A DNA stretch of 64,000 nt, from NCBI GenBank assembly GCA_949296705.1, contig CASFOW010000045.1, positions 4,234 to 68,233 on the forward strand, read 5' to 3'. This document shows, piece after piece, positions 5,542 to 39,957 of this stretch (position 1 is its first letter; each line of letters opens with the position of its first letter). The DNA is from an uncultured bacterium. Its GTDB lineage: Bacteria > Bacillota_I > Bacilli_A > RF39 > UBA660. The notes under the pieces are model-generated. The model made no database searches. It saw nothing but the letters and a program-made list of their open reading frames with translations, and was not told where the DNA came from. Position numbers and translations under genes: made by a program.

Positions 5542-5919
5542 TTATCTTGGTTCTATTTTTGTTTGGCTATAGTAATCATAGAGTTCTTTAAATCGTTGAA
5601 AATGTACGATTTCTCTTTGCCTTAGCCATAATAGTGGACCAATGACATCGGGATCATCAGTCAAATCGATTAAGTTCTCATACACTGCCCGCGCCTTTTG
5701 TTCCGCAGCCATATCCTCAGATAAATCAGCTAAATAATCACCAGTAGTGGCTACATAAGTAATGGTGAATGGTACTCCGTTTGCATCAGTAGGATACAAT
5801 GAACGATTATGTTCGGCATAGTGACTAGCCAAACCAGCTTTTTCTATTTCGTCGATTGTCGCATTTTTCATTAATTGATATACCATGGTAGATATCATTT
5901 CGATATGAGCAAATTCTTC
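5542..5919 (-). CDS. cotJC: manganese catalase (CotJC family), C-terminal fragment. The gene is split by the prophage insertion and the N-terminal fragment lies at 39712..39957.
   Basis: Translation ..EEFAHIEMISTMVYQLMKNATIDEIEKAGL..YENLIDLTDDP matches the CotJC-type Mn-catalase C-terminal half. The reading frame continues upstream of the Met at 5898 to the att core (ttcttc, 5914-5919). Confidence 0.7.
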   Translation of the reverse strand, partial: EEFAHIEMISTMVYQLMKNATIDEIEKAGLASHYAEHNRSLYPTDANGVPFTITYVATTGDYLADLSEDMAAEQKARAVYENLIDLTDDPDVIGPLLWLRQREIVHFQRFKELYDYYSQTKIEPR

Positions 5920-5938
5920 AGCTCACACACGATGGACA

Positions 5939-7456
5939 TTATAATTTAATTTCTATTCTTAATTCAAATTCATCTTCATGTCCTTTTCCTTTTACCTTTT
6001 TTATATAGTATACTCTTTTTATAATTGATTTTAAAAGGTTGTTTCTTTCTACGGCGGGTAGGTTAGTTGAATAATTTTTTAATACGTTGTTTAATTTAGG
6101 TATTATATTTTTTATTTTTTCTATTTTATTTTGCTTAGATTTTAAAGAATATTTTTCTTTTTCAATTTCTAAGCTGTTTATTTTTTCTTTTAATAATTTA
6201 CTTCTTTCTAAAAAAGTCTGATTATCATATAATCCTTGTTCTAATAAATCATAAGCCTTATTTAATTGTGATTTATTTTTTTCGATTTCTTTTTCAATTA
6301 ATTCTACATTATTAGTATCGAATTCTTGCGTTAGCGGTTCTTTTTGATATGTTGCTAAGGTTTTCTCATATTCCTTGGAATAGAGCTTTAAAGTATCTAA
6401 AATGCGCTCTTCGACTAGATATAAGTGCGATCCTATATTTTGGCAATGAGGAAGAGGACAGATTAATCCATCTATATGCCCAGAACGATAATTTCGTCTT
6501 ATCATTGTCCGATGGCAAATTCCGCATTCAATTAATCCAGCTAATGGATTTTGTAGACTTAAATTTTTTTTCACGGACTTTCCTTCTTTCACTTTTGATT
6601 TTTCATTAGCTAATTTCCATAATTCTTCTGACACAATTTCTTCATGTAATCCTTTAACTAAAGTAAAGTCTGTATGCTTTGGTCTGGATTTATATACAAT
6701 TCCATTTATCATACGCTTTTCTGTTTTTCTGTAATTCCATTTAATCATCCCATAATAGACTTCATTTTGAATGATATTTCTAATGCTAGCAGAAACCCAT
6801 ACTTCACTTTTTCTAGGAATAGAGCCAATTTTATTTAAATGATTAGCAATATTAGAAGCTCCTACTCCTTGAGAAGCAAGTTCAAATATTAATTTTACAA
6901 TTTTTGCTTCTTCTGGATTTAAAATCAATTTATAGCCTTTTTGACCTTTTAATTTTTCTTTAGTGTAGCCATACGGGCAAATAGAGCCTACAAATTTTCC
7001 CTCATTAACAGAAGCTAATCTGCCTCGACTTAGTCGTCTATTAATGGTTTTATATTCTCTTCTAGACATAAATAAGCCGAATTCAAAGTATTCTTCATCA
7101 GCTTCGTTATTTGGATCATATATTTTGGTTGGCGTAATTATTTTGGTGGTTGAAAAAGAAAATGATTTTGAAATCCTCGATTGATCGGCTGTATCTCCAC
7201 GCGCTAATCTATCTACATCTACTACAAATATGCCATCAAAGATGCCTTGCTCGACTTCTAATAGCATTTTTTGAATTTCTGGTCTTGCTTCTATTGTTTC
7301 TCCAGAAACAATTTCTTGATACCATTTCTCGATAGTTATATTCATTAATTTTGCAGTTCTAAGAATTAAATCTCTATGCCTTTTTAATGTATCCTCTCCG
7401 GTTGCTTTTTCTAATTCTAAATCAGCTCTAGACTTTCTTAAATATGCACCATACAT
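5939..7456 (-). CDS. large serine recombinase (phage integrase, SpoIVCA/SprA-like)
   Basis: N-terminal resolvase domain (YLRKSRAD..., VVDVDRLARG). Central recombinase domain with zinc ribbon CGICHRTMIRRNYRSGHIDGLICPLPHC. Coiled-coil C-terminus. 505 aa, adjacent to attL. Confidence 0.85.
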   Translation of the reverse strand: MYGAYLRKSRADLELEKATGEDTLKRHRDLILRTAKLMNITIEKWYQEIVSGETIEARPEIQKMLLEVEQGIFDGIFVVDVDRLARGDTADQSRISKSFSFSTTKIITPTKIYDPNNEADEEYFEFGLFMSRREYKTINRRLSRGRLASVNEGKFVGSICPYGYTKEKLKGQKGYKLILNPEEAKIVKLIFELASQGVGASNIANHLNKIGSIPRKSEVWVSASIRNIIQNEVYYGMIKWNYRKTEKRMINGIVYKSRPKHTDFTLVKGLHEEIVSEELWKLANEKSKVKEGKSVKKNLSLQNPLAGLIECGICHRTMIRRNYRSGHIDGLICPLPHCQNIGSHLYLVEERILDTLKLYSKEYEKTLATYQKEPLTQEFDTNNVELIEKEIEKNKSQLNKAYDLLEQGLYDNQTFLERSKLLKEKINSLEIEKEKYSLKSKQNKIEKIKNIIPKLNNVLKNYSTNLPAVERNNLLKSIIKRVYYIKKVKGKGHEDEFELRIEIKL

Positions 7457-7598
7457 TTAATATAGCACTTCCTTTCTTAATTTTATTGATAAGAAGGCTC
7501 ATTCATGCTATAATTAAGTAGCAGAAAAGAGTCTTATCGTGGTGGATTAGATTTTATTTCTGTATATTGATCTCGTATTTGCGGTACGAGGTCTTTTT

Positions 7599-7985
7599 TT
7601 ATTTTAAATTGAATTGTTCTTTTTTGGAAACTGTTGGAAGAACGAACAAATCACCATTTGAATAGTCTGCGGTATACGTGACTAATGCATAGCCTCCATT
7701 TTCACCAATGTATTTATAAGTATAATGATAAATGTGGTCATCTTCTTCTCTTGAAAATTCTTGTACACATTTTTCATAAGTATTATCATCGTGCCATTTA
7801 TCATCCGGATCTATTATTGGATTTACATCAAAATTGCTGTCTCCGATTTGAATTTTTTCAAATTCTTCTAAACTGATGCCAGCAGTTCCGCATTTTTTAT
7901 TTTTTTCCTCTTGCGAAACGAAAACTACTATAAGAAATACAAAAGCGGAAATTCCTATAATTATTGCTTTTTTTTCATTTTTCAT
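7599..7985 (-). CDS. small membrane-anchored or secreted protein (lysogeny-module cargo)
   Basis: N-terminal hydrophobic segment KKAIIIGISAFVFLIVVFV. Sits downstream of immA in the same orientation. Confidence 0.45.
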   Translation of the reverse strand: MKNEKKAIIIGISAFVFLIVVFVSQEEKNKKCGTAGISLEEFEKIQIGDSNFDVNPIIDPDDKWHDDNTYEKCVQEFSREEDDHIYHYTYKYIGENGGYALVTYTADYSNGDLFVLPTVSKKEQFNLK

Positions 7986-7988
7986 AAA

Positions 7989-8330
7989 TTACTCCTTATT
8001 ATTTATAGATGAAATGCTAAAATTGATATTTTCCTCTAGAAACTCGATATATCTATCAGCTTCATCTTCATATTTTTCTCTTTTAAATGCTAGTAGTTTA
8101 TCGGATTGATTAAGCTGATTCAATTCGATATGAGCTAGTTCGTGAAGCAAAGTTTTTTTCTGCTTATAAAACGACATCTCACGATTAATAAATATATTCT
8201 GAATATCCTTGTATGAATATACAAATCCGTTAATACCCTTAGGCAATTTTTCGTAGGTAATGCTTGCATTATAATAATTTAATAATTCCTGTTCAGTAAT
8301 TTCATTATTTAATAAATTAATGATTTTCAT
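7989..8330 (-). CDS. immA: ImmA/IrrE-family zinc metallopeptidase (anti-repressor protease)
   Basis: HEXXH motif LLHELAHIEL. Immediately downstream of the XRE repressor, the typical immR-immA arrangement. Confidence 0.7.
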   Translation of the reverse strand: MKIINLLNNEITEQELLNYYNASITYEKLPKGINGFVYSYKDIQNIFINREMSFYKQKKTLLHELAHIELNQLNQSDKLLAFKREKYEDEADRYIEFLEENINFSISSINNKE

Positions 8331-8372
8331 ACTTAATACTCCTTCCGAAGATTAAGTCCTGTACTAGCAACT

Positions 8373-8765
8373 CTATTCTTCATTTAATTGTTTATCTATT
8401 TCTTTTTTTCTTTTTTCTATGAGAAATCTTATCATTTCTTTATCATCTTCAGTTAATATATCTTTATTTTTATCAAAAAGTAGTTCTAATTCATCAAATT
8501 TATCTACATTAAAATATTGCTCATTAGTATTTTTTAAGTTTCCTTGTGGATCTTGGACATCATCATATGCTAAATAGTCGGTCGTACATCCAAAATAATC
8601 GGCTATTTTTTTAATTTTACTAATACCAGCTTTTTCTAATCTCTCATTGTCTGAATAGTAATCCCACAAAGTAGAATAAGGAATTCCAATTTCTTCTGCT
8701 ACTTGTCTTAAACTTTTTATACCTTTTTCTTTTATAAGAAAATCTATCTTTTCTGGAAATTTCAT
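8373..8765 (-). CDS. XRE-family HTH transcriptional repressor (phage cI-like)
   Basis: HTH SLRQVAEEIGIPYSTLWDY. Divergent from a Cro-like gene. Operators lie in the intergenic region. Confidence 0.75.
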   Translation of the reverse strand: MKFPEKIDFLIKEKGIKSLRQVAEEIGIPYSTLWDYYSDNERLEKAGISKIKKIADYFGCTTDYLAYDDVQDPQGNLKNTNEQYFNVDKFDELELLFDKNKDILTEDDKEMIRFLIEKRKKEIDKQLNEE

Positions 8766-8825
8766 ATTTCACCTCATTTCACTTCAACTATATATCAAAA
8801 AAAAAGAAAAATCAATTATTTTTTA

Positions 8826-8907
8826 CGATAAATCGGATTTTTATCAAAAAAACTGTTGACAGTTACCGATATATCGGTTATTATTAAAATGTAATCCGAT
8901 ACATCGG
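8826..8907. promoter_or_regulatory. lysogeny-switch operator cluster with three related palindromes
   Basis: CGATAAATCGG (8826-8836), CCGATATATCGG (8866-8877) and CCGATACATCGG (8896-8907) in the cI/cro divergent intergenic region. Confidence 0.6.
8856..8884 (+). promoter_or_regulatory. sigma-A-type promoter for the cro-like gene (-35 TTGACA, 17-bp spacer, -10 TATTAT). The middle operator lies in the spacer.
   Basis: TTGACA at 8856-8861 and TATTAT at 8879-8884. RBS AAGGAGG lies before the ATG at 8927. Confidence 0.5.
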
Positions 8908-8926
8908 ATAAAAGGAAGGAGGAATT

Positions 8927-9160
8927 ATGTATCCAAATTTAAAAGCAGAGATGGGAAGGCTTGGTATAGAGCAAAAAGATATAGTTTTAGCTTTAAATAG
9001 TCAACCAGGAACAATTAGTTTAAAAATGTGTGAGAAAAGGGATTGGACTTTAAAAGAAACAAAAAAAATCAAGAAAATTTTTTTCCCGAATTTAACATTA
9101 GACTATTTATTTAAAACTAAATCTGAAATAGAACAAGAACAAAATACAACAAAGCAATAG
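8927..9160 (+). CDS. Cro-like XRE-family HTH regulator
   Basis: HTH IEQKDIVLALNSQPGTISLKM. First gene of the rightward early operon. Confidence 0.6.
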   Translation: MYPNLKAEMGRLGIEQKDIVLALNSQPGTISLKMCEKRDWTLKETKKIKKIFFPNLTLDYLFKTKSEIEQEQNTTKQ

Positions 9161-9432: not shown

Positions 9433-9564
9433 TAATATCAATTTGTTTCTGGGACGAGAGATATGAATAAAATTATCACTACAACAAAACTACAACAGAT
9501 AAAAAAACCACCACGATAAGAAAAAAATAAATTCTTATTAAATATATTTTAATGAGGAGGCATT

Positions 9565-9780
9565 ATGGAATATCAATATCAAATCGGTAAATCTAAAGTA
9601 ACATTAATTTCTAATGTTACTCCCGATGAGCGTAAGCAAAATTTAAAAGATATATATGATGTAATAAATAGAATTGCCGATAGTCAACGTGAAAAAGGAA
9701 ATAATGTTGACGATTGGTTTTATACACAAGAAGAATTAGCAGAATTGAAAAAGAGTAATAGTCCTAAATTGATATATTAA
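9565..9780 (+). CDS. hypothetical phage early protein
   Basis: RBS GAGGAGG 7 nt before the ATG. 71 aa. Confidence 0.45.
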   Translation: MEYQYQIGKSKVTLISNVTPDERKQNLKDIYDVINRIADSQREKGNNVDDWFYTQEELAELKKSNSPKLIY

Positions 9781-10092: not shown

Positions 10093-10788
10093 ATGAAAGA
10101 TAATTTTTTATTAAAAAAGAGCCAGCAAGCGATATTTGACGCATTAAATGATGAAGATGCTGGAAAGTTAATCAAAGGAATATTTGATTATGTAAATACT
10201 GGAAATAGTAATTTAGATGGCTTATTAAATGCGGTATTTATACCCATCAAAGAATATATAGATCAAAATGAAGAAAATTACAAAAAAAGATGTGAGAAAA
10301 ATAAAGAAAACGTATCTAGACGGTGGAATCAAAATGAATACGAAACCATACCAAACGATACGAACGTATCAAGTGGTACAAAAAATGATACGAACGTATA
10401 CGAAGCTATACCAAACGATACTGATAATAATCATATATCACATATCACTAATCATAATTCATCTAAAGATAGAAAAAAAGTTAATGGGGGTATGGGGGAA
10501 GAAGAAAAAAAGGAAGAAAAAGAAAAATACGGCGAATACAAGAATGTACTACTTAGCAAGAAAGAATACGAATCACTGCAAAATGCATATTCCAACCACG
10601 AAGAACTTATTAAATTTCTTGATGAGTACATTGAAGAGAAAGGCTATAAGAGCAAAAGTCATTATTTAGCAATTCGTCGATGGGTAGTACAAGCTGTAAA
10701 TGAAAACAACGAGAGAAATACTAGTCAAAACAAGCAAAGTGGAAATATATTTTTAAATTATGCCGAGAGGAAGGGAATTCAATTATGA
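10093..10788 (+). CDS. putative phage replication protein or replisome organiser (DnaD/Phg_2220_C-like C-terminus) with internal iteron-like repeats
   Basis: C-terminal KSKSHYLAIRRWVVQAVNENNER resembles the conserved phage C-terminal domain of replisome organisers. Repeats are embedded in the gene at 10340-10425. Confidence 0.4.
   Translation: MKDNFLLKKSQQAIFDALNDEDAGKLIKGIFDYVNTGNSNLDGLLNAVFIPIKEYIDQNEENYKKRCEKNKENVSRRWNQNEYETIPNDTNVSSGTKNDTNVYEAIPNDTDNNHISHITNHNSSKDRKKVNGGMGEEEKKEEKEKYGEYKNVLLSKKEYESLQNAYSNHEELIKFLDEYIEEKGYKSKSHYLAIRRWVVQAVNENNERNTSQNKQSGNIFLNYAERKGIQL
10340..10425. repeat. iteron-like direct repeats (candidate phage replication origin)
   Basis: ATACCAAACGATA at 10348-10360 and 10408-10420. 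GATACGAACGTAT at 10357-10369 and 10387-10399. Confidence 0.45.
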
Positions 10789-11330
10789 CCAGAGAAGAAG
10801 TGCTAAAGATACTAGCTGTTTTAGAGACTGCTTATCCCAATTTCTATAAAAATTGTACTAGTGCTGAAGTTGATCAAATAGTTAGTCTATATCAGCTCAT
10901 GTTTAAAGATTGTAATTACAGATTAGTTTCTATGTCTATTACAGAGCTGATAAATACTTTTAAGTATCCTCCGACTATTGCAGATGTTAAGGAAAAAATG
11001 TATGAATTGACTACTCATGATAGTGAACAAACAGCTACAGAATTGTGGGACAAGCTTTTAAAGGCAATTCGGAATGGATATTACGGAGCCGAAGAAGAAT
11101 TTAAAAAATTACCTGATGAGGTTAAAGAATTTCTTAAAAGCCCAATTCATTTAAGAGAATTATCTGAAACAGATAGTTCTACGATTCATACAGTTGTAAA
11201 AGGCCAATTTTTAAAGCAAATTGAAATCATAAAGAAAAGGCGAAAAGCAGATTCGATGATGCATCCAGATACAAGAATAGCAATTAATAACGGTACAATA
11301 GCAGGTTTATTGAATAATGAATCACAATAA
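10785..11330 (+). CDS. phage replication-module protein, possibly a G39P-like helicase loader
   Basis: N-terminus MTREEVLKILAVLETAYPNFY resembles loader/inhibitor-of-G40P family N-termini, from memory only. Start is translationally coupled to the upstream gene. Confidence 0.3.
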   Translation: MTREEVLKILAVLETAYPNFYKNCTSAEVDQIVSLYQLMFKDCNYRLVSMSITELINTFKYPPTIADVKEKMYELTTHDSEQTATELWDKLLKAIRNGYYGAEEEFKKLPDEVKEFLKSPIHLRELSETDSSTIHTVVKGQFLKQIEIIKKRRKADSMMHPDTRIAINNGTIAGLLNNESQ

Positions 11331-11562
11331 TTTTAAATTTAATTTCTCACTGTTATACATATCCTGTTCTTGCGGAAATTACTTTAAAAATACTACATGG
11401 TTATCTAATTTTTTAAAAATTATGATCGATCCAAAACAGGATAAGCAAAAGATAGCTGTATCTTGGAAGTGTCCGCGATGCCACAAAATTAAGATTATTG
11501 ATTTATTGATAGTTAAAAATCACAATATGTTTTTTGTAAAAAAATTAAAGGAGAATCTATGA
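11317..11562 (+). CDS. small zinc-ribbon protein
   Basis: CSCGN...CPRCHK cysteine pairs. Confidence 0.35.
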   Translation: MNHNNFKFNFSLLYISCSCGNYFKNTTWLSNFLKIMIDPKQDKQKIAVSWKCPRCHKIKIIDLLIVKNHNMFFVKKLKENL

Positions 11563-13596: not shown

Positions 13597-13602
13597 ATAA
13601 GT

Positions 13603-32496: not shown

Positions 32497-34003
32497 AAAT
32501 TTAGTGGCCGGAGAGACTACAAAGATAACTGAGAGTGGCTCTAATATATCAGTTGAATTAAATGATATTATGAAGAATAAAATCAATTCTATTCCAAATA
32601 TAACAATAGGTACTACCACAACAGGAGATGTGGGAACAGAGGCAAGCGTAAGCAATTCAGGGACCGCTACGAATATGATATTGAATTTCACAATTCCAAA
32701 AGGTGCTAACGGTCAAGATGGCCAAGATGGAGCTGATGGTGCGAATGGTGCGGATGGAGAAGATGGAATTACCCCTCATATTGGCGATAATGGAAACTGG
32801 TTCTTAGGCGAAGAAGATACTGGTAAACCTTCGCGCGGAATTCAAGGAGAACAAGGGCAAGCAGGACAACCTGGTAGTGATGGCGAAGATGGTCAAGATG
32901 GTATCGGATTCACTACTGCGTCAGCAGGAACCCCAACACAAAGTGATGGATATACTGTTACGCCAATTACTTTTAACAAAACAGATGGTTCTAATGTAGT
33001 AGTTAATGTAAGCGCTAAAAATGGACTTGATGGTAGTGGTGGAACAGGTGGGACTACTGATTATTCAGAACTAGAAAATAAGCCTAAAATTAATAATGTA
33101 GAGTTAACTGGTAATAGAACTCTTGCCGAGTTAGGAATACAACCAGAAGGAAATTACTTGGAATCTGAAAGTGATCCAACCGTTCCCAACTATGTCAAAA
33201 ATATCACACAGCAGAATATTAATGATTGGAATAATAAGAGTGAATTTAGTGGCTCATATAATGACTTATCAGATAAACCGACAATTCCAGAAGAATATTC
33301 GCTACCGATTGCGAGTTCTACAGTTCTAGGCGGAATCAAAGTTGGCACAAATTTGGAGATTACATCTGATGGAACACTTAATGCCCAAACAAGCGGTGGA
33401 ACAGGGGGAACAACAGACTATACTCAATTAAGCAATAAGCCTAAAATCAACAACGTGGAATTAAATGGAAATAAGACTTTAAGCGATTTAGGTATTCAAC
33501 AAACTGTTGTAAGTGAAACAGAACCCACAGATGATAGTGTAAAAGTGTGGATTAATCCTAATGGATCTAATGAAGAATGGTCTTTAATAGAAACTTTTGA
33601 GGCCGATGGTATTAATGGAGTATTTGAAAAAACAAATATTAATTTGAAGAAAGCAATAGTATCTATTGATGCTAAAATAGGAACTGCTAGTAAAACAATG
33701 TATTTAAGGATAAAAACTGGAAATGATATTGACTATTTAAGATGTGGATATATTTCTGGCGTAGTTAATACTCAAAAAGAATACATCACTACAGTAGAAA
33801 TCGAAACGCAACCATTTGTAATTATAACGGCAAGAACTTGTAGTAAGGCCGATACTTCCAGTTTTAATATAATCAATGTTTCTTTGCCGAATAATTTTGA
33901 AAAAAAGGGAAATATAAAGGCGATATCAATCGGTCATTCTTCTGAAGAATTCGTTCCCCCTGCTGGAACAATAATTAATATTTATGGAGTGGAAGGTGAG
34001 TAG
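32483..34003 (+). CDS. tail fibre protein with collagen-like Gly-X-Y repeats
   Basis: GANGQDGQDGADGANGADGEDG and GEQGQAGQPGSDGEDGQDG repeats. Duplicated ~20-aa segments (TDY..L.NKPKINNVEL.GN.TL..LGIQ). Confidence 0.6.
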   Translation: MYMAKNLVAGETTKITESGSNISVELNDIMKNKINSIPNITIGTTTTGDVGTEASVSNSGTATNMILNFTIPKGANGQDGQDGADGANGADGEDGITPHIGDNGNWFLGEEDTGKPSRGIQGEQGQAGQPGSDGEDGQDGIGFTTASAGTPTQSDGYTVTPITFNKTDGSNVVVNVSAKNGLDGSGGTGGTTDYSELENKPKINNVELTGNRTLAELGIQPEGNYLESESDPTVPNYVKNITQQNINDWNNKSEFSGSYNDLSDKPTIPEEYSLPIASSTVLGGIKVGTNLEITSDGTLNAQTSGGTGGTTDYTQLSNKPKINNVELNGNKTLSDLGIQQTVVSETEPTDDSVKVWINPNGSNEEWSLIETFEADGINGVFEKTNINLKKAIVSIDAKIGTASKTMYLRIKTGNDIDYLRCGYISGVVNTQKEYITTVEIETQPFVIITARTCSKADTSSFNIINVSLPNNFEKKGNIKAISIGHSSEEFVPPAGTIINIYGVEGE

Positions 34004-34005
34004 AT

Positions 34006-34494
34006 ATGTCAGTAATTAAGATAAGAGATGAAAGTGGAGAATTTGTAGATATTCCTGTTATAAAAGGAGAAAAGGGCGAAAATGGTCCTAGTAATGTTTT
34101 GACGATTGGCTCAGTAACTTCAGGAGATACTGCAAGCGCTACAATAACCGGTGAAAGCCCAAATCAAGTTTTGAATTTAGTCTTGCCTAAAGGAGATAAA
34201 GGTGATACCGGTGCGCAAGGTGAAGATGGTATTCCAGGAACATCGGGCCAAGATGGGGCGGATGGCGTATCCCCTAATATTTCTGTAAAAGTGAACAACG
34301 CCACTCAATATATACTAACAATTACAGATGCAGATGATTCTTTTGATACCCCAAATTTAAAAGGTCAAAATGGTGCAGATGGTCAAGATGGAGTGGATGG
34401 AACTAGTGTATTAGTAATTGAAGCAACAGATGAGAATAATGCACTTACTTTAAGCAGTCAAAATCCTAATAACATTTATTTTTGGGAGGAATAA
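34006..34494 (+). CDS. collagen-like repeat tail fibre-associated protein
   Basis: GDKGDTGAQGEDGIPGTSGQDGADG and GQNGADGQDGVDG. Confidence 0.5.
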   Translation: MSVIKIRDESGEFVDIPVIKGEKGENGPSNVLTIGSVTSGDTASATITGESPNQVLNLVLPKGDKGDTGAQGEDGIPGTSGQDGADGVSPNISVKVNNATQYILTITDADDSFDTPNLKGQNGADGQDGVDGTSVLVIEATDENNALTLSSQNPNNIYFWEE

Positions 34495-35351
34495 TGGGAA
34501 CAGTATTTAATGCAAAAAAATGGAAAGGTGCTTGTGTAAAAGGAAAAAAAGTTTGTGGGCTAGTAAAGAACGGAGCGCTATTTTTTAAAAGTGATAATTA
34601 TATCCCTCCAATTTCAGAAATTTACAAACGAAGAATTATGGTTGGCGATAATTTAAAAGGCAAAAAAGTTTATGCCGATTTTCCAAATAATTATGTATTA
34701 GAACTGCAGGATAGATTAGGCACATCATTTAAGACTAATACTTTAGTTGATGTAACAAATCGTTCGATAACTGAATATACTTTTCCATCCATGTCTGGTA
34801 GTGGAACAGGATATTATGTGGCCTGTAATTTTGCCTCTGATTCTTCCGATTTTCGATTTTATTGGTGTGAATCATCTAATACAGATAATTATGTTAATAA
34901 TAGTGAGGTGTTATTGGAAAATGATAGGGATTATATTGTCGCTCAAATTGACGATACTAATCCTAGCTATCGACATTTATTTGTAGAAGATTCTAATATC
35001 AGACCTTTTTTAGTAGGGGATATAATTACCGAAAATACAAAAATATATTTTACAGTCCCAGATAACATAGATACAGAAATTACGGATAATAACGAAGTCG
35101 ACAGAATAATTGTTTTAAATGATAAGAGTAACTATGTAAGTGGTTTGTATATTGCTGATAAAACTTGCATGCTGGCACTTTATGTAAGTTATGGAACAAG
35201 CACTATTTTTTATAAAAAACAAGATGGAGTATTAGATACTAACTTAAGTAGTGCTAAAGATTCCAGATTTATAGGAATTGTAAAAACAATAAATACCGAA
35301 TCAAAGATATATCAGTATGTTTTAGTCGATAAAACAACTTTAGGGGCATAA
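34494..35351 (+). CDS. tail fibre or receptor-binding accessory protein (hypothetical)
   Basis: RBS GGAGG before ATG 34494. Position. Confidence 0.4.
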   Translation: MGTVFNAKKWKGACVKGKKVCGLVKNGALFFKSDNYIPPISEIYKRRIMVGDNLKGKKVYADFPNNYVLELQDRLGTSFKTNTLVDVTNRSITEYTFPSMSGSGTGYYVACNFASDSSDFRFYWCESSNTDNYVNNSEVLLENDRDYIVAQIDDTNPSYRHLFVEDSNIRPFLVGDIITENTKIYFTVPDNIDTEITDNNEVDRIIVLNDKSNYVSGLYIADKTCMLALYVSYGTSTIFYKKQDGVLDTNLSSAKDSRFIGIVKTINTESKIYQYVLVDKTTLGA

Positions 35352-35481
35352 TGAAAAAACTAAGCTGGCTCTGGAAAAAATTTTGGGGTAAAAAATATTA
35401 TATTGTCTATACGGAAGAGCTTCGAAAGGGTGAGGCTCTTTTTTATGGACACAAAATTTACGTAGGAAAGAAGAGTGATAA

Positions 35482-36915
35482 GTGATGGCAACCTTTTTAG
35501 GATACTCTAATTTTAATGGTAAGAATGGTAGTAAGTTTTCAGCTGACCTCTTGTACGACATACTAGAGCAAAATATAGTAGGCAATTATCACAGAATTCG
35601 TCTGTATGGTTATATTAGGTCGTGGGATGGATATTCAGGGTCTGGTAGTTACGCACCATTTTATATAAATGGTCAAAATGCAGGTGGTTTTTCATCAATA
35701 TCAGCCAATCAGTATTCTCAAGTTGCGGTACTAGATGTAACGGTTCAACACGATGATGCTGGGAAGGGAGTATTAAATTGGTCGCTATTTGTCGATACCT
35801 CTTGGACTTTAGGAGATGCGAGTGCGAGCGGTAGTTTAGAATTACCGACAATACCAAGGGCTAGTCAGCCTACAGCAACTAGTGCCAACATTGGCGATGC
35901 AATTACTATTTACACTAATCGTAAGTCATCAATATTTACTCATACGATTACTTGGAGTTTTGGCTCTTTAAGTGGAACTGTCGCTACTGGTGTAGGCGAT
36001 TCTTGTTTATTTCAGTTACCAGAAAGCTTGTATTCTCAAATTCCTAATTCACAATCTGGAACAGGTGTCATTTACTGCGAAACCTATAACGGTGGTACTA
36101 AAGTAGGGAATACTCTAGCATGTAATTTTAACGCCTATGCGAATCAAAGTGCATGCTTGCCAAATGTTTCAATTGAAGTTAAAGATATTAATGAATCAGC
36201 AATTGCGTTAACTGGAAGTAATCAAAAATTGATTAAGTTCTTTTCTAACGCCCAAGTCGATTTTAGTTCTAGTGCGAAAAACTATGCTTCAATTACTGCA
36301 AATAGTATCTATTGCGGTAATGGACAGACAATGGCTGGTAATTCAGTGATTTTTAGCCAAGTTGAATCAGGCTATTTTAAAGGCACAGCTACAGATTCTA
36401 GAGGTTTTTCTAACTCAATAGAAAAAAATGTAGAGATGGTACCTTATGTTAAATTAACTTTGAATTGTGAAGTGTCTCGTGTAACTCCGACAGGCTCACA
36501 AGTATTAGTTAGCCTTAGCGGAAATTACTATAATGGTAGTTTTGGTACTCAATCTAATACACTAGCTCTTAAATATCGTCATAAAGAATCGGAATCTTCT
36601 TCTTGGAGCGAGTATGAAGAAATAATTCCAACTGTCGAAGGAAACGTGTTCAGCTTTGAAGAAATACTAGATTATAGCTTTAATTATCAAAAATATTATG
36701 ATTTTGAATTTGTAGTAGTTGATAAGATTACTCAAGTAATTTCTCAACAATCAATCTCACCAGGTATTCCCATTATGCTACTTTGCGAAAAATTTATTGA
36801 ATTATGGGGTAATAAAGCGTTTTATTTAAACGAAAATGAGGAATTGGCTATATTAGGTGATTTCAAAATCGGTGAGACAACAAAATCATTAAATGATATA
36901 GCAGGAGGTCAATGA
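35482..36915 (+). CDS. tail fibre or receptor-binding protein (hypothetical)
   Basis: 477 aa. Position between the fibre genes and the lysis cassette. Confidence 0.4.
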   Translation: MMATFLGYSNFNGKNGSKFSADLLYDILEQNIVGNYHRIRLYGYIRSWDGYSGSGSYAPFYINGQNAGGFSSISANQYSQVAVLDVTVQHDDAGKGVLNWSLFVDTSWTLGDASASGSLELPTIPRASQPTATSANIGDAITIYTNRKSSIFTHTITWSFGSLSGTVATGVGDSCLFQLPESLYSQIPNSQSGTGVIYCETYNGGTKVGNTLACNFNAYANQSACLPNVSIEVKDINESAIALTGSNQKLIKFFSNAQVDFSSSAKNYASITANSIYCGNGQTMAGNSVIFSQVESGYFKGTATDSRGFSNSIEKNVEMVPYVKLTLNCEVSRVTPTGSQVLVSLSGNYYNGSFGTQSNTLALKYRHKESESSSWSEYEEIIPTVEGNVFSFEEILDYSFNYQKYYDFEFVVVDKITQVISQQSISPGIPIMLLCEKFIELWGNKAFYLNENEELAILGDFKIGETTKSLNDIAGGQ

Positions 36916-37319
36916 TGGAAAATTGTGATGTTAATGCAAATAAAATAAAATCACTTGAAGCAAGAATTGAAAAACTAGAGCAGTACCGTGAAAATGATAA
37001 AGATCAACTTCATGCTTTAGATACAACTTTACAAGTTTTTATTAATGAGATGAAGAATATTTCAGAAGATTTAAAAAATATAGTCGCAAATTCTAAAGAA
37101 GCAGTAACGAGAGCAGCTAATGCTACACAGAAAGATATAGGTACTTTAAAAGAAAAATATGATTCTTTGGAAAAAAAATTATCGGTTTTAGACAACAAGT
37201 TGGAGCAGGAAACAGTTATTGCTAATGCGGAAAAATGGAAAAAAATAACAAGCTATATTGCTACAGCGGTCGTCGGTGCGGTTGTAGCTTTTATTTTGGC
37301 AAAGATAGGGATTTCATAA
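36912..37319 (+). CDS. XhlA-like coiled-coil lysis-associated membrane protein
   Basis: Coiled-coil N-terminus and a single C-terminal TM segment YIATAVVGAVVAFILAKIG. First gene of the lysis cassette. Confidence 0.5.
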   Translation: MMENCDVNANKIKSLEARIEKLEQYRENDKDQLHALDTTLQVFINEMKNISEDLKNIVANSKEAVTRAANATQKDIGTLKEKYDSLEKKLSVLDNKLEQETVIANAEKWKKITSYIATAVVGAVVAFILAKIGIS

Positions 37320-37337
37320 AAAGAAAGGAATGATATT

Positions 37338-37523
37338 ATGAAAGAAAAAATAATTAAATTAATTGATTTAAAGTCAATTATTACGATTTTGATGGCAATT
37401 ACACTTGTAGTCGGCTTTTTTACAAATAGAATTGAAGCAGATGTATTTATACCTTTTGCTACAATGACTTTTACTTTTTATTTCACAAAAAAGAAAAACG
37501 ATGAAAAAGGAAGTGAGCAGTAA
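37338..37523 (+). CDS. holin (small TM protein)
   Basis: 61 aa with hydrophobic segment IITILMAITLVVGFF. Lies between the xhlA-like gene and the endolysin. Confidence 0.5.
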   Translation: MKEKIIKLIDLKSIITILMAITLVVGFFTNRIEADVFIPFATMTFTFYFTKKKNDEKGSEQ

Positions 37524-37723
37524 TGAATAGTAGAGCTGAATTTTTAGAAGTAAGTGAAGAACAAAAAGATAGAATCGAAAAAGCAAGAAAGATTTTTTCA
37601 GATATTTACGACTTTGCTGAAAAATATTGCAAAAAAAGCAGGGAAACATCTTTAGCCTTTACTAAATTAGAAGAAGCGCAATTTTGGCTTATTAAAGGTA
37701 TTACCAGAGAGGTGGAAGAATAA
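37523..37723 (+). CDS. hypothetical protein in the lysis region
   Basis: ORF, overlapping start. Confidence 0.3.
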   Translation: MNSRAEFLEVSEEQKDRIEKARKIFSDIYDFAEKYCKKSRETSLAFTKLEEAQFWLIKGITREVEE

Positions 37724-37724
37724 T

Positions 37725-37994
37725 ATGAAAAATGATGAAATGTTAGATTTATGCAAAGAAGTAGTTGTTAATTATTTCAATGAAAATGTTGAAAAGACAG
37801 ATGAATTTAAAATAAATAAGGATAACGTATTCGTTGTATGGTTTAGTAAAACACTACAAAACTTTAAAGCATTAGTAAGTACTACGATTTCAGATGGTAT
37901 GTATTATGAGTTAACTTATAATGGTAACAGGAAAGAATTATATTTGGATGCTTACAAAAAATGGGAAAATAAATGTATTAAGGTAGGTGAGTAA
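37725..37994 (+). CDS. hypothetical protein in the lysis region
   Basis: ORF. Confidence 0.3.
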   Translation: MKNDEMLDLCKEVVVNYFNENVEKTDEFKINKDNVFVVWFSKTLQNFKALVSTTISDGMYYELTYNGNRKELYLDAYKKWENKCIKVGE

Positions 37995-37995
37995 C

Positions 37996-38838
37996 ATGGA
38001 AGCTTTTACATTTGGAATGAAAACAATGCGTATCACTCAAAATTATAGTGGTACAGCATCTCATAAGCCTCATTGGTATAATTCTAAGGACTATGCTGAT
38101 TATCCTATTGATGTTGCCGGAAAAGATGAAAATAGAGATATTTATTATGCTACGGTAGATATGCAAGTTCTAGCTATCAAGGGAAAAGGAAACTCGATGA
38201 CTAATACGATTTGGTTAGTTACTACTGACAAGGTTCAAACTCCCAGTGGTGTTATGAAAGTATTCATGGCTTTAACTCATTGGAACGATAATGACCAATA
38301 TGTTTCTAAACTAAAAGTAGGTAATATCGTTAAAGCCGGTAATCCTATCTGTGAAGAGGGAACAGATGGAGCTACCGCCAATCACTTGCATGTAGTTTAC
38401 GGGAATGCTGATAAGGGATGCGGAGATACTCTTATTCAGAATTCGAATGGTAAGTGGGTATCCTCTGGATATTGCATGAAGCCAGAAGAAATTATGTATG
38501 TAGATAGAGAGTTTACGAATGTAGTAGATACATGTGGGCTAACGTTCCAAGACAAGCCGAAAGAGGTGGTAAACACGTTATTCCTTGGAGAAAAAGGGTG
38601 GTTAGGCTTCGGAGATGAGAGTGAGTCAGTAGGTAAGATATGCCAATTTATGCACGATACTTTTCCTAAATACGGTGAGTGGCTTGGCTTAGATAATGAG
38701 AAAGTTTTAGGCAATTATTATGGTAACATTATCAAGTCATACATCATCGAATTTCAGAAAAGAACAGGCTTGGAATCAGATGGTAACGTTGGGCCTATCA
38801 CTTTAGCAAAATTGAAAGAATTTGGATTTAAAGAATAA
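37996..38838 (+). CDS. endolysin: N-terminal peptidase-like catalytic domain plus C-terminal peptidoglycan-binding (PG_binding_1-like) domain
   Basis: C-terminus KSYIIEFQKRTGLESDGNVGPITLAKL matches the PG-binding repeat. RBS AAGGTAGGTGA before ATG 37996. Last late gene, followed by a terminator. Confidence 0.6.
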   Translation: MEAFTFGMKTMRITQNYSGTASHKPHWYNSKDYADYPIDVAGKDENRDIYYATVDMQVLAIKGKGNSMTNTIWLVTTDKVQTPSGVMKVFMALTHWNDNDQYVSKLKVGNIVKAGNPICEEGTDGATANHLHVVYGNADKGCGDTLIQNSNGKWVSSGYCMKPEEIMYVDREFTNVVDTCGLTFQDKPKEVVNTLFLGEKGWLGFGDESESVGKICQFMHDTFPKYGEWLGLDNEKVLGNYYGNIIKSYIIEFQKRTGLESDGNVGPITLAKLKEFGFKE

Positions 38839-38870
38839 GAGTCTAGTCAATTGTGATTAGACTCTTTTTT
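38839..38870 (+). terminator. rho-independent terminator after the endolysin
   Basis: gagtcta-(loop)-tagactc stem followed by tttttt. Confidence 0.65.
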
Positions 38871-38935
38871 GTTTGAATAAAATTTTGGAAAAGTAAAGTA
38901 TAAAGTATATTTTGTTGTTAATTCTAAGCTCCTTT

Positions 38936-39448
38936 TTATTTTTCAAAACTGTAATCTTCTTTTAACAGCCTCATATTATCTATGTTAAAATTGCCATCTT
39001 CGATATCATCATCGCTTATTTTAGTACTATCATACTCGAATAACTGCTTAAAATCAGCATACATTGAGCAATTATTCTTTTCACAATTCAAGGCAATGCT
39101 ATTATAAGTATTAATAGCCTTCTCATAAGTATCATATACTTTGATATATTTATCGTTTATATTTTGAGTGGTCTCTCCCCTAGATTCCCAACCGTTTGAA
39201 GTTTTTTCGTAATGTTCTGTACCACAATAAATATAATATTTTTTCATCTTTAATTCCTCCTTAAAATTATTGATTGCATTCTTTAGAAATTCTACTTTAC
39301 TAATGTTGTGTTGAACAAGCAATTCATCAAGTTCTTCTTTTTCTTGAATAGTCAGATCCACTTTAAATGGCTTAATATTTTTTCGTCGCTCTTTCATATA
39401 GGCTCTTAAATATTCCTTTTGATTAAATTCTGTATTTTCACTTTTCAT
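38936..39448 (-). CDS. hypothetical protein near attR; N-terminus may be a small DNA-binding domain
   Basis: 170 aa, opposite orientation to the late genes, at the prophage end (moron or RDF position). Confidence 0.4.
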   Translation of the reverse strand: MKSENTEFNQKEYLRAYMKERRKNIKPFKVDLTIQEKEELDELLVQHNISKVEFLKNAINNFKEELKMKKYYIYCGTEHYEKTSNGWESRGETTQNINDKYIKVYDTYEKAINTYNSIALNCEKNNCSMYADFKQLFEYDSTKISDDDIEDGNFNIDNMRLLKEDYSFEK

Positions 39449-39453
39449 AATCT

Positions 39454-39482
39454 ATTGACATCTTCTTCTTGGAATCATATAA
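39454..39482 (+). promoter_or_regulatory. perfect consensus sigma-A promoter (TTGACA-17 bp-TATAAT) facing attR and the host cotJ genes, followed by a 14-bp palindrome (39485-39516)
   Basis: TTGACA 39454-39459 and TATAAT 39477-39482. Downstream palindrome TTGTAGAAaTTGGC-tatc-GCCAAcTTCTACAA. Confidence 0.45.
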
Positions 39483-39711
39483 TATTTGTAGAAATTGGCT
39501 ATCGCCAACTTCTACAACATTTGGTAACTTTAGAGGTCTTTTGGAATTGGAGCTTTAAAGTTACTTTTATTTTCCAAATTTTTATTGAAAATGTCAATTT
39601 TTTCACATCCTTTCTTTTTTTTTATCTGTAATCTTTCTTGATTACATATTAAGTATATCACTTTACGTACGTAAAGTCAATAGTTTTTTGCTTATTTTAT
39701 AAAAAAGTTGT

Positions 39712-39957
39712 CTATCGTGTGTGGATTGATTCTTCAGTAGCAATATCTGTAAGAAGGGCTTTTCCTCGATTATCTGGCATAGTATATCGTTGATTTAAGT
39801 AACGTAAGGCCGCAGCCATTTCTCCATTAGAACCCCCATATTGTGTAATTAGATATTTTGCCATACGTAAGTCTTTTTTCTTAATAGAAATTGGATATTG
39901 TAATCTTTTTTCATATTTCCACATATTAATTTTCCTCCATTTCCCAAGGCCATGCAT
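39712..39957 (-). CDS. cotJC: manganese catalase (CotJC family), N-terminal fragment, truncated by the prophage at attR
   Basis: MHGLGKWRKINMWKYEKRLQYPISIKKKDLRMAKYLITQYGGSNGEMAAALRYLNQRYTMPDNRGKALLTDIATEE matches the CotJC N-terminus. The last 5 codons and the stop are phage-derived. Confidence 0.7.
   Translation of the reverse strand: MHGLGKWRKINMWKYEKRLQYPISIKKKDLRMAKYLITQYGGSNGEMAAALRYLNQRYTMPDNRGKALLTDIATEESIHTR

What the first reader, a model, noticed from the sequence alone, without database searches (positions are those of the whole stretch)
5542..39957. Prophage sits inside a cotJC-type Mn-catalase gene; a large serine recombinase at attL could restore the gene on excision
The two halves of a CotJC-family manganese catalase lie 34 kb apart on the minus strand: the N-terminal half at 39712-39957 and the C-terminal half at 5542-5919. 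Joining them at the shared 6-bp core ttcttc (5914-5919 and 39740-39745) restores an in-frame ...DIATEE|FAHIEMISTMVYQL... protein of ~199 aa. The phage-side arms, agctcacacacgatgg at attL and tatcgtgtgtggattga at attR, are inverted repeats of each other, as expected for a serine-integrase attP. The 505-aa large serine recombinase gene abuts attL, the same architecture as skin/sigK and SPbeta/spsM in Bacillus subtilis. I do not recall cotJC being reported as a target of such an element.
Basis: partly seen in the sequence, partly recalled or inferred. Interest (0 to 1): 0.75.

Follow-up and report, generated by a model that had tools for sequence, protein, structure and literature searches.

The report
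Phage splits spore-coat catalase gene cotJC
A complete 33.8-kb temperate phage sits inside the spore-coat manganese-catalase gene cotJC of an uncultured gut bacterium, and its own serine recombinase could cut it out exactly to rebuild the gene; this kind of element is already known, including in cotJC, so it is a well-documented new example, not a new phenomenon.

Summary
The two halves of cotJC lie at 5542-5921 and 39738-39922 on the minus strand. They are separated by a 33,816-bp intact siphovirus prophage whose 505-aa large serine recombinase (LSR) abuts attL.

The shared core is 9 bp, ATTCTTCAG, at 5913-5921 and 39729-39737.

Joining the halves gives a 188-aa CotJC. It is 96% identical over 100% of its length to uninterrupted homologues and colinear with solved Mn catalases. 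Related contigs show the empty attB with the same flanking genes, and one contig carries the predicted attP.

cotJC is the conserved target of this LSR family. In 70 of 145 related loci, down to about 40% identity, a cotJC half broken at residues ~61-68 lies next to the recombinase, in either orientation. Some elements are only 2.9-4.2 kb.

A 71-aa early ORF (9565-9780) travels with the LSR and is my candidate directionality factor.

The cotJ operon has a sigma-K-type promoter. I found no such promoter in this prophage, so sporulation-programmed excision remains untested.

cotJC was already listed as a target (Abe 2013; Galperin 2022). I classify this as a new member of a known kind.

The parts
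5542..5921 (-). cotJC C-terminal half (residues ~66-188: FAHIEMISTMVYQL...KIEPR, stop at 5542)
   Evidence: ORF list and translation. Pfam Mn_catalase on the joined protein.
5893..5945 (.). attL. Host arm, then 9-bp shared core ATTCTTCAG (5913-5921), inferred crossover dinucleotide TC (5915-5916), phage arm CACACACGAT (5924-5933).
   Evidence: The arm and core are identical in the independent assembly L184. The crossover is narrowed by L209, where attP and attB share only TTC.
5939..7456 (-). Large serine recombinase (integrase), 505 aa. Its stop codon abuts the attL arm.
   Evidence: Pfam Resolvase + Recombinase. Invariant S9/R7 and four Cys (C311, C314, C333, C338) in 21 homologues. Homologues sit next to cotJC halves.
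7486..7600 (+). Candidate ~80-nt antisense small RNA upstream of and antisense to int. Promoter TTGATA-17-TGCTATAAT (7486-7514), two hairpins, intrinsic terminator 7569-7593 plus T-run. It carries the motif copy at 7532-7545.
   Evidence: Promoter/terminator scan. These are the most conserved blocks of the int-upstream region across the clade. Fold -28.3 kcal/mol, z -5.8. Compensatory pairs in the terminator stem. No Rfam family.
7989..9160 (.). Lysogeny switch: ImmA-like M78 metalloprotease (7989..8330, -), HTH repressor (8373..8765, -), Cro-like HTH (8927..9160, +).
   Evidence: PHROGs and Pfam.
9508..9521 (+). Second copy of the 14-nt motif CCACCACGATAAGA, in the leader of the 71-aa ORF. 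The first copy is at 7545->7532 on the int-sense strand.
   Evidence: Exactly two matches in 64 kb, 0 expected. The motif co-varies at both positions in related phages.
9565..9780 (+). 71-aa early ORF: candidate recombination directionality factor (inferred).
   Evidence: It is the only early gene, apart from the generic lysogeny-module genes, conserved in every LSR-clade phage with enough flank. Its identity largely tracks LSR identity, with L102 an outlier. No Pfam or PHROG hit. Weak profile similarity (hhalign P=7e-4) to a small-ORF family found with 49 of 56 related LSRs.
10093..18249 (+). Early and middle genes: replisome organiser/helicase loader (10093..11330), phage SpoVG homologue (12475..12729), internal tyrosine recombinase (15469..16350), DUF1492 late regulator (17315..17749), HNH endonuclease (17812..18249).
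   Evidence: PHROGs and Pfam.
18365..38838 (+). Packaging, head, tail and lysis genes: terminase small/large, portal, protease, major head, connectors, major tail, tape measure (26736..29978), Dit, tail and fibre proteins, holin-like (36912..37319, 37725..37994), endolysin (37987..38838).
   Evidence: PHROGs and Pfam.
38936..39448 (-). 170-aa cargo gene beside attR. It has its own sigma-70-like promoter (39680->39652) overlapping the 18-bp palindrome ACTTTACGTACGTAAAGT (39660-39677). Not part of the recombination unit.
   Evidence: Not conserved in phages with the same LSR. Promoter scan.
39700..39760 (.). attR. Phage arm ATCGTGTGTG (39714-39723), core ATTCTTCAG (39729-39737), crossover TC (39731-39732), host arm.
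   Evidence: The attP rebuilt from attR and attL equals the attP carried by contig L088.
39738..39957 (-). cotJC N-terminal half (MWKYEK... to ...DIATEE). Likely start at 39922. The fragment reads on into the phage arm to a stop at 39712.
39926..40375 (-). cotJB (149 aa), first gene of the cotJB-cotJC operon.
   Evidence: Pfam CotJB, 8.3e-24. Same gene order at the empty sites.
40395..40421 (-). Sigma-K-type promoter of the cotJ operon (ACTCATTCTTATGTTTGTCATACATTA; AC-17-CATAnnnTA), 46 nt upstream of the cotJB start.
   Evidence: One of only 4 strict matches in 64 kb. The same motif, mostly 42-49 nt upstream of the start codon, is present in 20 of 37 related cotJB upstream regions versus 0.5 expected.

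Best explanation
An apparently intact, probably active temperate siphovirus (33,816 bp, core to core) has integrated into cotJC using its large serine recombinase. cotJC is the second gene of a sigma-K-type cotJB-cotJC spore-coat operon. The host is an uncultured gut member of the Bacilli, close to Candidatus (Allo)scybalousia.

Shown:
- The attP is a short dyad: 10-15-bp inverted arms around a 16-bp spacer.
- The attB lies in the codons for the conserved DIATEE(L/F)AH metal-site motif.
- The symmetry centre of attP falls on a TC dinucleotide in the second Glu codon (E65).

Inferred:
- Strand exchange happens at that TC.
- In the lysogen cotJC is split between the putative Mn ligands and is non-functional.
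- Excision needs the LSR plus a directionality factor. I propose the 71-aa early ORF 9565..9780.
- Excision re-joins the halves without scar and restores a 188-aa CotJC.
- For this phage, excision is most likely driven by the ordinary lytic switch (ImmA-type antirepressor, repressor, Cro). cotJC most likely serves mainly as a conserved, dispensable landing site.

I put the chance of additional mother-cell-specific excision during sporulation at about 0.3. It is possible but unsupported for this element.
For: - Split gene, core and arms.
- The joined protein is a full Mn_catalase/CotJC.
- Empty site with the same neighbours (368-aa gene, 51-aa gene, cotJB, cotJC, AAA gene), colinear through the junction.
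- The attB motif is conserved in 83 intact homologues.
- The predicted attP is found on independent contig L088.
- Complete phage modules.
- LSR hallmarks.
- Target specificity of the family. Four further distinct LSRs (64-98% identity) sit next to cotJC halves. So do 70 of 145 loci down to ~40% identity, all broken at residues ~61-68.
- The crossover is narrowed to TC by L209, where attP and attB share only TTC.
- The 71-aa ORF co-occurs with the LSR and shares a 14-nt motif with the int leader.
- No sigma-K or sigma-E consensus lies upstream of int or the 71-aa ORF. The same consensus is clearly used upstream of cotJB in this lineage.
Against: - Nothing was tested experimentally. Integration, excision and the role of the 71-aa ORF are inferred.
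- The 71-aa ORF has no database family. Its link to the wider small-ORF family is weak (hhalign probability 26%).
- Family-level signs argue for selection on excision itself, and so against a purely passive landing site. Mini-elements of 2.9-4.2 kb keep only the LSR, the small ORF and at most a few further small ORFs. Sigma-K-type promoters lie upstream of 7 of 70 small-ORF copies.
- The host's ability to sporulate is inferred only from the cotJ operon and its promoter.
Confidence: 0.8

Rival explanations
1. Programmed, SPbeta/skin-like rearrangement. During sporulation the prophage is excised only from the mother-cell chromosome, because the directionality factor or the LSR is switched on by sigma-E or sigma-K. 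cotJC is rebuilt in time for sigma-K-driven coat assembly, and the forespore keeps the prophage.
For: - The target is a mother-cell-type gene with a strict sigma-K consensus promoter.
- The whole LSR family is dedicated to this site.
- Relatives include the sigK-intervening phage PhiS63 (38.5% identity; PMC3442830).
- Mini-elements reduced to the LSR, the small ORF and at most a few further small ORFs persist in cotJC. This pattern is seen for skin and gin (PMC5595907).
- The strict sigma-K consensus lies upstream of 7 of 70 distinct small-ORF copies versus 0.6 expected.
- Every tested element of this architecture that I know from the literature excises in the mother cell (PMC4191935, PMC5025042).
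Against: - In this prophage there is no CATA-type -10 element at all within ~120 nt upstream of the 71-aa ORF. The same holds for the conserved int leader.
- The phage is complete and has an ordinary SOS-type switch.
- cotJC-type catalases are dispensable for spore formation in C. difficile, as cited in PMC11222575, so there is little need for restoration.
- Sporulation of the host is not demonstrated.
Confidence: 0.3
2. Dead-end insertion. The prophage or its recombination system is defective, so cotJC is permanently inactivated and the halves are decaying pseudogene pieces.
For: None directly. I could not prove that the 71-aa ORF is a directionality factor.
Against: - Both halves are free of frameshifts and stops, and the joined product is 96% identical to intact proteins.
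- All phage modules and the LSR catalytic and zinc-binding residues are intact.
- A phage encoding a 98%-identical LSR (P0121) is seen in attP form.
Confidence: 0.04
3. The internal tyrosine recombinase (15469..16350), not the LSR, is the integrase. Or the junctions are an assembly chimera.
For: A second recombinase gene exists and is conserved in related phages.
Against: - It lies 9.5 kb from the nearest junction.
- The att sites are short dyads abutting the LSR stop codon, as in LSR phages.
- The same attL is found in an independent assembly, and homologous junctions occur in dozens of contigs.
- Mini-elements have the LSR but no tyrosine recombinase.
Confidence: 0.02

Closest known systems
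SPbeta prophage in spsM of Bacillus subtilis (SprA LSR + SprB RDF; PMC4191935, PMC5499854)
   Same: - An active, complete prophage splits a mother-cell-expressed spore-envelope gene.
- The LSR gene sits at one end.
- Precise excision rebuilds the ORF.
- A small early-region protein is the (candidate) directionality factor.
   Different: - The target is cotJC, not spsM.
- The phage is a 34-kb siphovirus, not the 134-kb SPbeta.
- sprB has a sporulation-specific promoter and excision in the mother cell is proven. Here no such promoter was found and nothing has been tested.
skin element in sigK (B. subtilis SpoIVCA; C. difficile CD1231 + RDF CD1234; PMC5025042) and phage PhiS63 in sigK of C. perfringens (PMC3442830)
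   Same: - An LSR-bearing element sits inside a mother-cell sporulation gene.
- The PhiS63 integrase is a 38.5%-identical relative of the window LSR, and PhiS63 is also a functional phage.
   Different: - sigK is a master regulator, so interruption there controls development. cotJC is a dispensable coat enzyme.
- skin is cryptic, whereas this prophage is complete.
gin element in gerE of Bacillus cereus (girC LSR + girX; PMC5595907)
   Same: The 2.9-4.2-kb cotJC mini-elements found in related contigs (L249, L209, L207, L220) are likewise reduced to an LSR, one small partner ORF and at most a few further small ORFs.
   Different: - This applies to relatives, not to the window's full prophage.
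- The target gene is different.
- No excision data exist.
Previously listed cotJC-interrupting elements (Abe et al. 2013, Mol Microbiol 90:415, as cited in bioRxiv 10.1101/2021.11.22.469490; Laceyella sacchari cotJC, bioRxiv 10.1101/2022.02.25.481979)
   Same: The same target gene is interrupted by a phage-like or skin-like element.
   Different: - Those are brief listings in other taxa, without att sites, recombinase family, directionality factor or excision data. I could not read Abe 2013 itself.
- Here the host is an uncultured gut Bacilli lineage, and the insertion point, attP, attB and family-wide specificity are defined.
Listeria phi10403S/A118-type prophage in comK ('active lysogeny'; cited in PMC4191935)
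   Same: An LSR prophage reversibly interrupts a host gene and restores it by precise excision.
   Different: The trigger there is phagosomal escape, not sporulation. The target and host are unrelated.

Membership tests
Large serine recombinase (phage serine integrase) | N-terminal resolvase-type catalytic domain with the serine nucleophile | tested here: met
   Pfam Resolvase 9e-14 at residues 4-154. The YLRKSR motif, with S9 and R7, is invariant in 21 homologues.
Large serine recombinase (phage serine integrase) | C-terminal recombinase domain plus zinc-ribbon domain (with an embedded coiled coil) | tested here: met
   Pfam Recombinase 6.1e-20. Four invariant Cys: C311, C314, C333, C338. Zn_ribbon_recom is precomputed on many homologues. 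The coiled coil itself was not tested.
Large serine recombinase (phage serine integrase) | Short (~40-50 bp) dyad-symmetric attP and attB sharing little more than a non-palindromic central dinucleotide | tested here: met
   attP has 10-bp (window) or 15-bp (L088) perfect inverted arms around a 16-bp spacer, with TC at the centre. In L209, attP and attB share only TTC. attB has a GATAT...ATATC dyad, read directly from the sequence.
Large serine recombinase (phage serine integrase) | Excision requires a cognate recombination directionality factor | tested here: inconclusive
   The candidate 71-aa ORF 9565..9780 rests on co-occurrence and a shared motif. No homology to a known RDF and no interaction test.
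CotJC / short Mn-catalase spore-coat family | Full-length match to Mn_catalase, colinear with solved Mn catalases, including the conserved GGxxGE and TEExxH stretches | tested here: met
   Pfam PF05067, 9.8e-57, residues 1-175. Colinear with 1JKU and 4R42. 96% identity over 100% coverage to intact homologues. That E35, E65 and H68 correspond to the L. plantarum Mn ligands is my recollection, not tested here.
CotJC / short Mn-catalase spore-coat family | Encoded directly downstream of cotJB in one operon | tested here: met
   Pfam CotJB on 39926..40375. Same order at the empty sites.
CotJC / short Mn-catalase spore-coat family | Located in the spore coat; catalase activity | not testable with these tools
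   Needs spores of an uncultured organism.
NCBIfam NF052557 ManCatBAC (268-aa manganese catalase equivalog) | Score at or above the curated cut-off (350 bits) | tested here: not met
   113.6 bits. The protein is the short CotJC type, not this equivalog.
Sporulation-gene intervening elements (skin, SPbeta, vfbin, vrin, gin, yin) | The element interrupts the coding sequence of a mother-cell-expressed sporulation gene | tested here: met
   The interruption falls at codon 65 of cotJC. The operon has a strict sigma-K consensus promoter, conserved in 20 of 37 relatives. Expression itself was not measured.
Sporulation-gene intervening elements (skin, SPbeta, vfbin, vrin, gin, yin) | Carries its own site-specific recombinase next to a junction, and precise excision rebuilds an intact ORF | tested here: met
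   The LSR abuts attL. The in-silico join is in frame and full length.
Sporulation-gene intervening elements (skin, SPbeta, vfbin, vrin, gin, yin) | Excision is developmentally regulated (sigma-E/sigma-K-dependent recombinase or RDF) and confined to the mother cell | tested here: inconclusive
   No sigma-K or sigma-E consensus upstream of int or the 71-aa ORF in the window. Such promoters do occur upstream of 7 of 70 small-ORF copies in relatives.
Sporulation-gene intervening elements (skin, SPbeta, vfbin, vrin, gin, yin) | The host forms endospores | not testable with these tools
   Inferred only from the conserved cotJB-cotJC operon and its sigma-K-type promoter. The rest of the genome was not available.
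Temperate tailed phage (siphovirus-type prophage) | Complete lysogeny, replication, packaging, head, tail and lysis modules between the att sites | tested here: met
   PHROGs and Pfam assignments. A related phage is seen in attP form.

The most novel reading that the evidence does not exclude
cotJC may be the dedicated landing site of a large, uncharacterised family of serine-recombinase elements in gut spore-formers. The family would range from complete phages to 2.9-kb units holding little more than a recombinase and a small ORF.

On this reading:
- Many members, possibly including this prophage, are excised in the mother cell under sigma-K control, which restores the coat catalase.
- The small ORF is a new family of directionality factors.
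- In the window's clade, int and this ORF are co-controlled by a conserved ~80-nt antisense RNA through a shared 14-nt motif.
- Insertion polarity is switched simply by inverting the 16-bp attP spacer between perfect inverted arms.
Probability: 0.3. Interest if true: 0.65.

Novelty: new member of a known kind. Interest (0 to 1): 0.45.

Why it matters
It adds a fully defined case to the short list of phage or phage-derived elements that reversibly split sporulation genes. Defined here are the exact attP and attB, the crossover dinucleotide, the recombinase, a candidate directionality factor and the empty site.

It also shows that cotJC is a major family-wide target in uncultured gut Firmicutes, not an occasional one.

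The compact att sites and the natural polarity variants may interest people who engineer serine integrases. In those variants the identical recombinase is paired with a flipped attP spacer.

The mini-elements and the sigma-K promoters upstream of some partner ORFs give concrete candidates for testing whether coat-gene restoration is programmed. The window's own prophage, taken alone, is an ordinary example of a known phenomenon.

Tried and rejected
1. The 170-aa ORF next to attR (38936..39448) as a directionality factor driven by read-through from the cotJ promoter. Rejected. It is absent from phages with the same LSR, and it has its own promoter and operator.
2. Sporulation promoters in the prophage. 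The strict sigma-K pattern has 4 hits in 64 kb, none upstream of int or the early genes. The strict sigma-E pattern has none.
3. IMG/VR scan with the single LSR protein found nothing. Only the alignment-based scan worked.
4. The predicted second junction of the flipped-orientation lysogen (TTCTTCAGCTCACACACGATAGACAAC) has 0 hits in the JGI metagenomes. The flipped form therefore rests on one junction type seen in three contigs.
5. Exact-sequence look-up of the C-terminal fragment: not on record.
6. HMM iteration from the 71-aa family did not reach the wider small-ORF family, nor the reverse. The profile-profile match is weak.
7. Searching for inverted repeats that would explain why the cotJ block is inverted relative to the AAA gene in some hosts gave nothing convincing.
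8. Abe et al. 2013 could not be read. Mageeney et al. 2020 does not mention cotJC or catalase in the main text.
9. Rfam has no family for the small-RNA candidate.
10. A fused LSR-ORF structure prediction was not attempted.

Full report
**1. The observation**

On the minus strand, an ORF at 5542..5898 encodes the C-terminal part of a CotJC-type protein. Its frame stays open up to 5921. An ORF at 39712..39957 encodes the N-terminal part.

- ttcttc is at 5914-5919 as reported. At the other junction it is at 39730-39735, not 39740-39745.
- The two junctions share 9 bp, ATTCTTCAG, at 5913-5921 and 39729-39737.
- On the phage side, CACACACGAT (5924-5933) and ATCGTGTGTG (39714-39723) form a perfect 10-bp inverted repeat.
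- Joining at the core gives MWKYEK...DIATEE|FAHIEM...KIEPR. This is 188 aa from the likely start at 39922, or 199 aa from the upstream ATG.

**2. The rebuilt gene is real**

- The joined protein matches Pfam Mn_catalase over residues 1-175 (9.8e-57).
- It aligns colinearly with the solved Mn catalases 1JKU and 4R42.
- It is 96% identical over 100% of its length to uninterrupted proteins of 188-199 aa.
- By my recollection of the Lactobacillus plantarum enzyme (ligands E35, E66, H69), the break falls between E65 and H68 of the TEExxH metal-site motif. Each fragment alone should therefore be inactive.
- The gene upstream is cotJB (Pfam CotJB).

**3. Empty site and attP exist elsewhere**

Contigs encoding the 96%- and 91%-identical proteins have uninterrupted cotJB-cotJC. 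Four of these five contigs (L082-L085) also have the same neighbours as the window: a 368-aa gene, a 51-aa gene and the AAA-ATPase gene. The window's joined DNA aligns straight through the junction with them, at 83-90% identity.

Across 83 intact homologues the site lies in the conserved DIATEE(L/F)AH codons, and GAAGAA is usually kept.

Contig L088 encodes an LSR (P0121) 98% identical to the window's and carries its gene followed by TGTCTATCGTGTGTG-AGCTGAAGAATCAATC-CACACACGATAGACA and then the phage right end. That is the attP I had reconstructed, with 15-bp perfect arms. Contig L184, an independent assembly, is identical to window 5835-13231 and includes attL.

**4. The element is an intact temperate siphovirus of 33,816 bp**

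- LSR, then an ImmA-like protease, a repressor and a Cro-like protein.
- Replication genes, a SpoVG homologue and an internal tyrosine recombinase.
- A late regulator and an HNH endonuclease.
- Terminase, portal, protease and major head protein.
- Connectors, major tail protein, tape measure, Dit and fibre proteins.
- Holin-like proteins and an endolysin.

The LSR has the resolvase and recombinase domains. It has an invariant S9 and four invariant cysteines. Its stop codon touches the attL arm.

**5. cotJC is the family's target**

Four other LSRs (98, 72, 67 and 64% identical) lie next to cotJC fragments in independent contigs from different hosts. Their attP arms differ (for example TAACGTTAGTGT), but the core ATTCTTC and the position in the gene are the same.

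I then took 145 relatives with enough flank from IMG/VR and metagenomes. Most are only 40-50% identical. Seventy of them have a cotJC half within 400 bp of the int stop, always broken at residues ~61-68:
- 35 have the N-terminal half in antisense orientation.
- 34 have the C-terminal half on the same strand.
- 1 is atypical.

Five loci contain both halves:
- The elements are ~2.9 kb (L249), 3.4 kb (L209), 4.1 kb (L207), 4.2 kb (L220) and 9 kb (L112).
- In L249 the only recognisable genes are the LSR and one small ORF, plus two unassigned ORFs.
- In L209, attP and attB share only TTC. Together with the symmetry centre of the window's attP, this places the crossover at TC (window 5915-5916 and 39731-39732), in the second Glu codon.

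**6. Candidate directionality factor**

The 170-aa gene beside attR is variable cargo.

The 71-aa ORF 9565..9780 is different. Apart from the generic lysogeny-module genes (repressor, ImmA-like protease), it is the only early gene found in every close LSR-clade phage with enough flank:
- 90-94% identity where the LSR is 98% identical.
- 68% where the LSR is 72% identical.
- 55% where the LSR is 67% identical.
- An outlier, L102: 40% identity with an LSR at 73%.
- Its database relatives sit on the same contigs as LSR relatives.

A 14-nt motif, CCACCACGATAAGA, occurs exactly twice in the window, in the int leader and in this ORF's leader, with 0 expected. It changes in step at both places in related phages.

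The more distant LSRs are accompanied by a small-ORF family of 45-75 aa (…E-x-x-IGNT-K-I-x-I-DDY…IL-RI…):
- It is present in 49 of 56 loci with at least 9 kb of upstream flank.
- In full phages it lies on the strand opposite to int.
- In most mini-elements it lies 55-132 nt upstream of int on the same strand.
- Its profile resembles the 71-aa family only weakly (hhalign P=7e-4, probability 26%).

The assignment as a directionality factor is an inference from association, not a demonstrated function.

**7. Is excision coupled to sporulation?**

In favour of a sporulation context:
- cotJB upstream regions carry the B. subtilis sigma-K consensus AC-16/17-CATAnnnTA.
- It is present in 20 of 37 cases, mostly 42-49 nt upstream of the start codon, against 0.5 expected.
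- The window's copy is at 40421->40395.

This argues that the lineage uses a mother-cell sigma factor and that cotJC is a late mother-cell gene.

Against, for this prophage:
- Neither int nor the 71-aa ORF has such a promoter. No CATA element lies within ~120 nt upstream of the 71-aa ORF or in the conserved int leader.
- The phage has an ordinary lytic switch.

In relatives, the strict sigma-K pattern lies upstream of 7 of 70 distinct small-ORF copies. Shuffles give 0.6, and only 0.42% of all 150-nt windows have it. Together with the mini-elements, this suggests that some family members are programmed.

For the window's phage I put programmed mother-cell excision at about 0.3. Simple reversible disruption of a dispensable gene is the more likely reading. 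C. difficile mutants in cotJC-type genes still build a largely normal spore coat (PMC11222575).

**8. What is known, and novelty**

LSR elements that split sporulation genes are well established:
- skin in sigK
- SPbeta in spsM
- vfbin in spoVFB
- vrin in spoVR
- gin in gerE
- yin in yabG
- PhiS63 in sigK

(PMC4191935, PMC5025042, PMC5595907, PMC10747680, PMC3442830.)

cotJC itself is already listed. Abe et al. 2013 is cited for cotJC, gerE, yaaH and yhbH. Galperin et al. 2022 report a skin-like element in Laceyella sacchari cotJC.

This is a new, well-defined member of a known kind. The host is an uncultured gut Bacilli lineage close to Candidatus (Allo)scybalousia intestinigallinarum.

**9. 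Side observations**

The identical LSR protein (P0121) occurs with two attP polarities:
- In L086, L087 and L091 the 16-bp spacer between the perfect arms is inverted relative to the int gene. The prophage then sits in the opposite orientation in cotJC. This is also the polarity of the more distant relatives.
- The window, L088, L089 and L090 have the other polarity.

In the flipped cases the host cotJ block is itself inverted relative to the AAA gene. The prophage therefore keeps the same orientation relative to that gene, and the window's GC skew is positive along its whole length. I could not explain this link.

The int-upstream region encodes, on the opposite strand, a conserved promoter and terminator bracketing an ~80-nt two-hairpin RNA. 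The first hairpin carries the complement of the 14-nt motif.

Noticed in passing
window 7486-7600 (+): A conserved sigma-70 promoter (TTGATA-17-TGCTATAAT) and an intrinsic terminator bracket an ~80-nt two-hairpin RNA antisense to the int leader. The first hairpin contains UCUUAUCGUGGUGG. z-score -5.8, compensatory changes in the terminator stem, no Rfam family.
   Followed up: partly
window 7545->7532 (-) and 9508-9521 (+): The 14-nt motif CCACCACGATAAGA occurs exactly twice in 64 kb (0 expected): upstream of int and upstream of the 71-aa ORF. It co-varies at both positions in related phages. It could be an RNA-pairing site or a protein operator.
   Followed up: partly
L086, L087, L091 versus L088, L089, L090 and the window: The same 505-aa LSR protein is paired with two attP polarities. 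The 16-bp spacer between the perfect 15-bp inverted arms is flipped, which puts the prophage in the opposite orientation within cotJC. Both orientations are about equally common across the family (35 versus 34 loci).
   Followed up: partly
L086/L087 5338-7518; L182 11536-15492; window 2557-5313 and 39926-40683: The cotJC-cotJB(-51-aa gene) block is inverted relative to the neighbouring AAA-ATPase gene in some hosts. Combined with the flipped attP spacer, the prophage keeps the same orientation relative to the AAA gene, and GC skew is positive along the whole window. The cause is unexplained.
   Followed up: partly
L249 2720-5588; L209 2365-5800; L207; L220; L112: Mini-elements of 2.9-9 kb sit inside cotJC. 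They retain the LSR, a small partner ORF and little else, resembling gin- or skin-type degenerate intervening elements.
   Followed up: partly
L249 1160-2593: A second, different 477-aa serine recombinase ends just where the cotJC homology begins (around the QYGG motif, residue ~28). cotJC in that genome appears to be interrupted at two sites.
   Followed up: no
L099 and L100 (one 98.8-kb contig, ENA ERZ4933505): Two copies of an identical LSR gene lie 36 kb apart. One is next to the cotJC N-terminal half, the other next to phage lysis genes through an attP-like site. This suggests tandem prophages.
   Followed up: no
L136, L137, L103, L167, L171, L117, L187 (upstream of the small ORF): The strict sigma-K consensus (AC-16/17-CATAnnnTA) lies 28-89 nt upstream of the small partner ORF in 7 of 70 distinct copies (0.6 expected). 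The window's copy has none.
   Followed up: partly
window 12475-12729 (+): The phage encodes a SpoVG homologue (Pfam SpoVG, 1.5e-30) in its early region.
   Followed up: no
window 15469-16350 (+): An internal tyrosine recombinase (293 aa) lies far from the att sites. It is conserved in related phages (L102 70%, L182 40%). Its role is unknown.
   Followed up: no
window 39455-39483 (+): A perfect sigma-70 consensus promoter (TTGACA-17-TATAAT, 12/12) at the phage right end points outward across attR, antisense to the cotJC N-terminal half and to cotJB.
   Followed up: no
window 39660-39677: The 18-bp perfect palindrome ACTTTACGTACGTAAAGT overlaps the sigma-70-like promoter of the 170-aa cargo gene. 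It is probably an operator.
   Followed up: no
window 42210-61769: The host flank looks like a defence island: a tRNA gene, a Fic protein, a 1590-aa Type ISP restriction-modification enzyme (43239..48011), a radical-SAM protein, a TerB-domain protein and a BrxC/BrxD-type ATPase (58246..59631).
   Followed up: no
window 39926-40375 (-): CotJB is 149 aa, with a ~70-residue N-terminal extension. No separate cotJA ORF lies upstream, whereas L209 has a separate 116-aa ORF (CotJA-like by eye) upstream of a 105-aa cotJB. A divergent 51-aa Cys/Gly-rich ORF (40528..40683) is conserved next to the operon.
   Followed up: no
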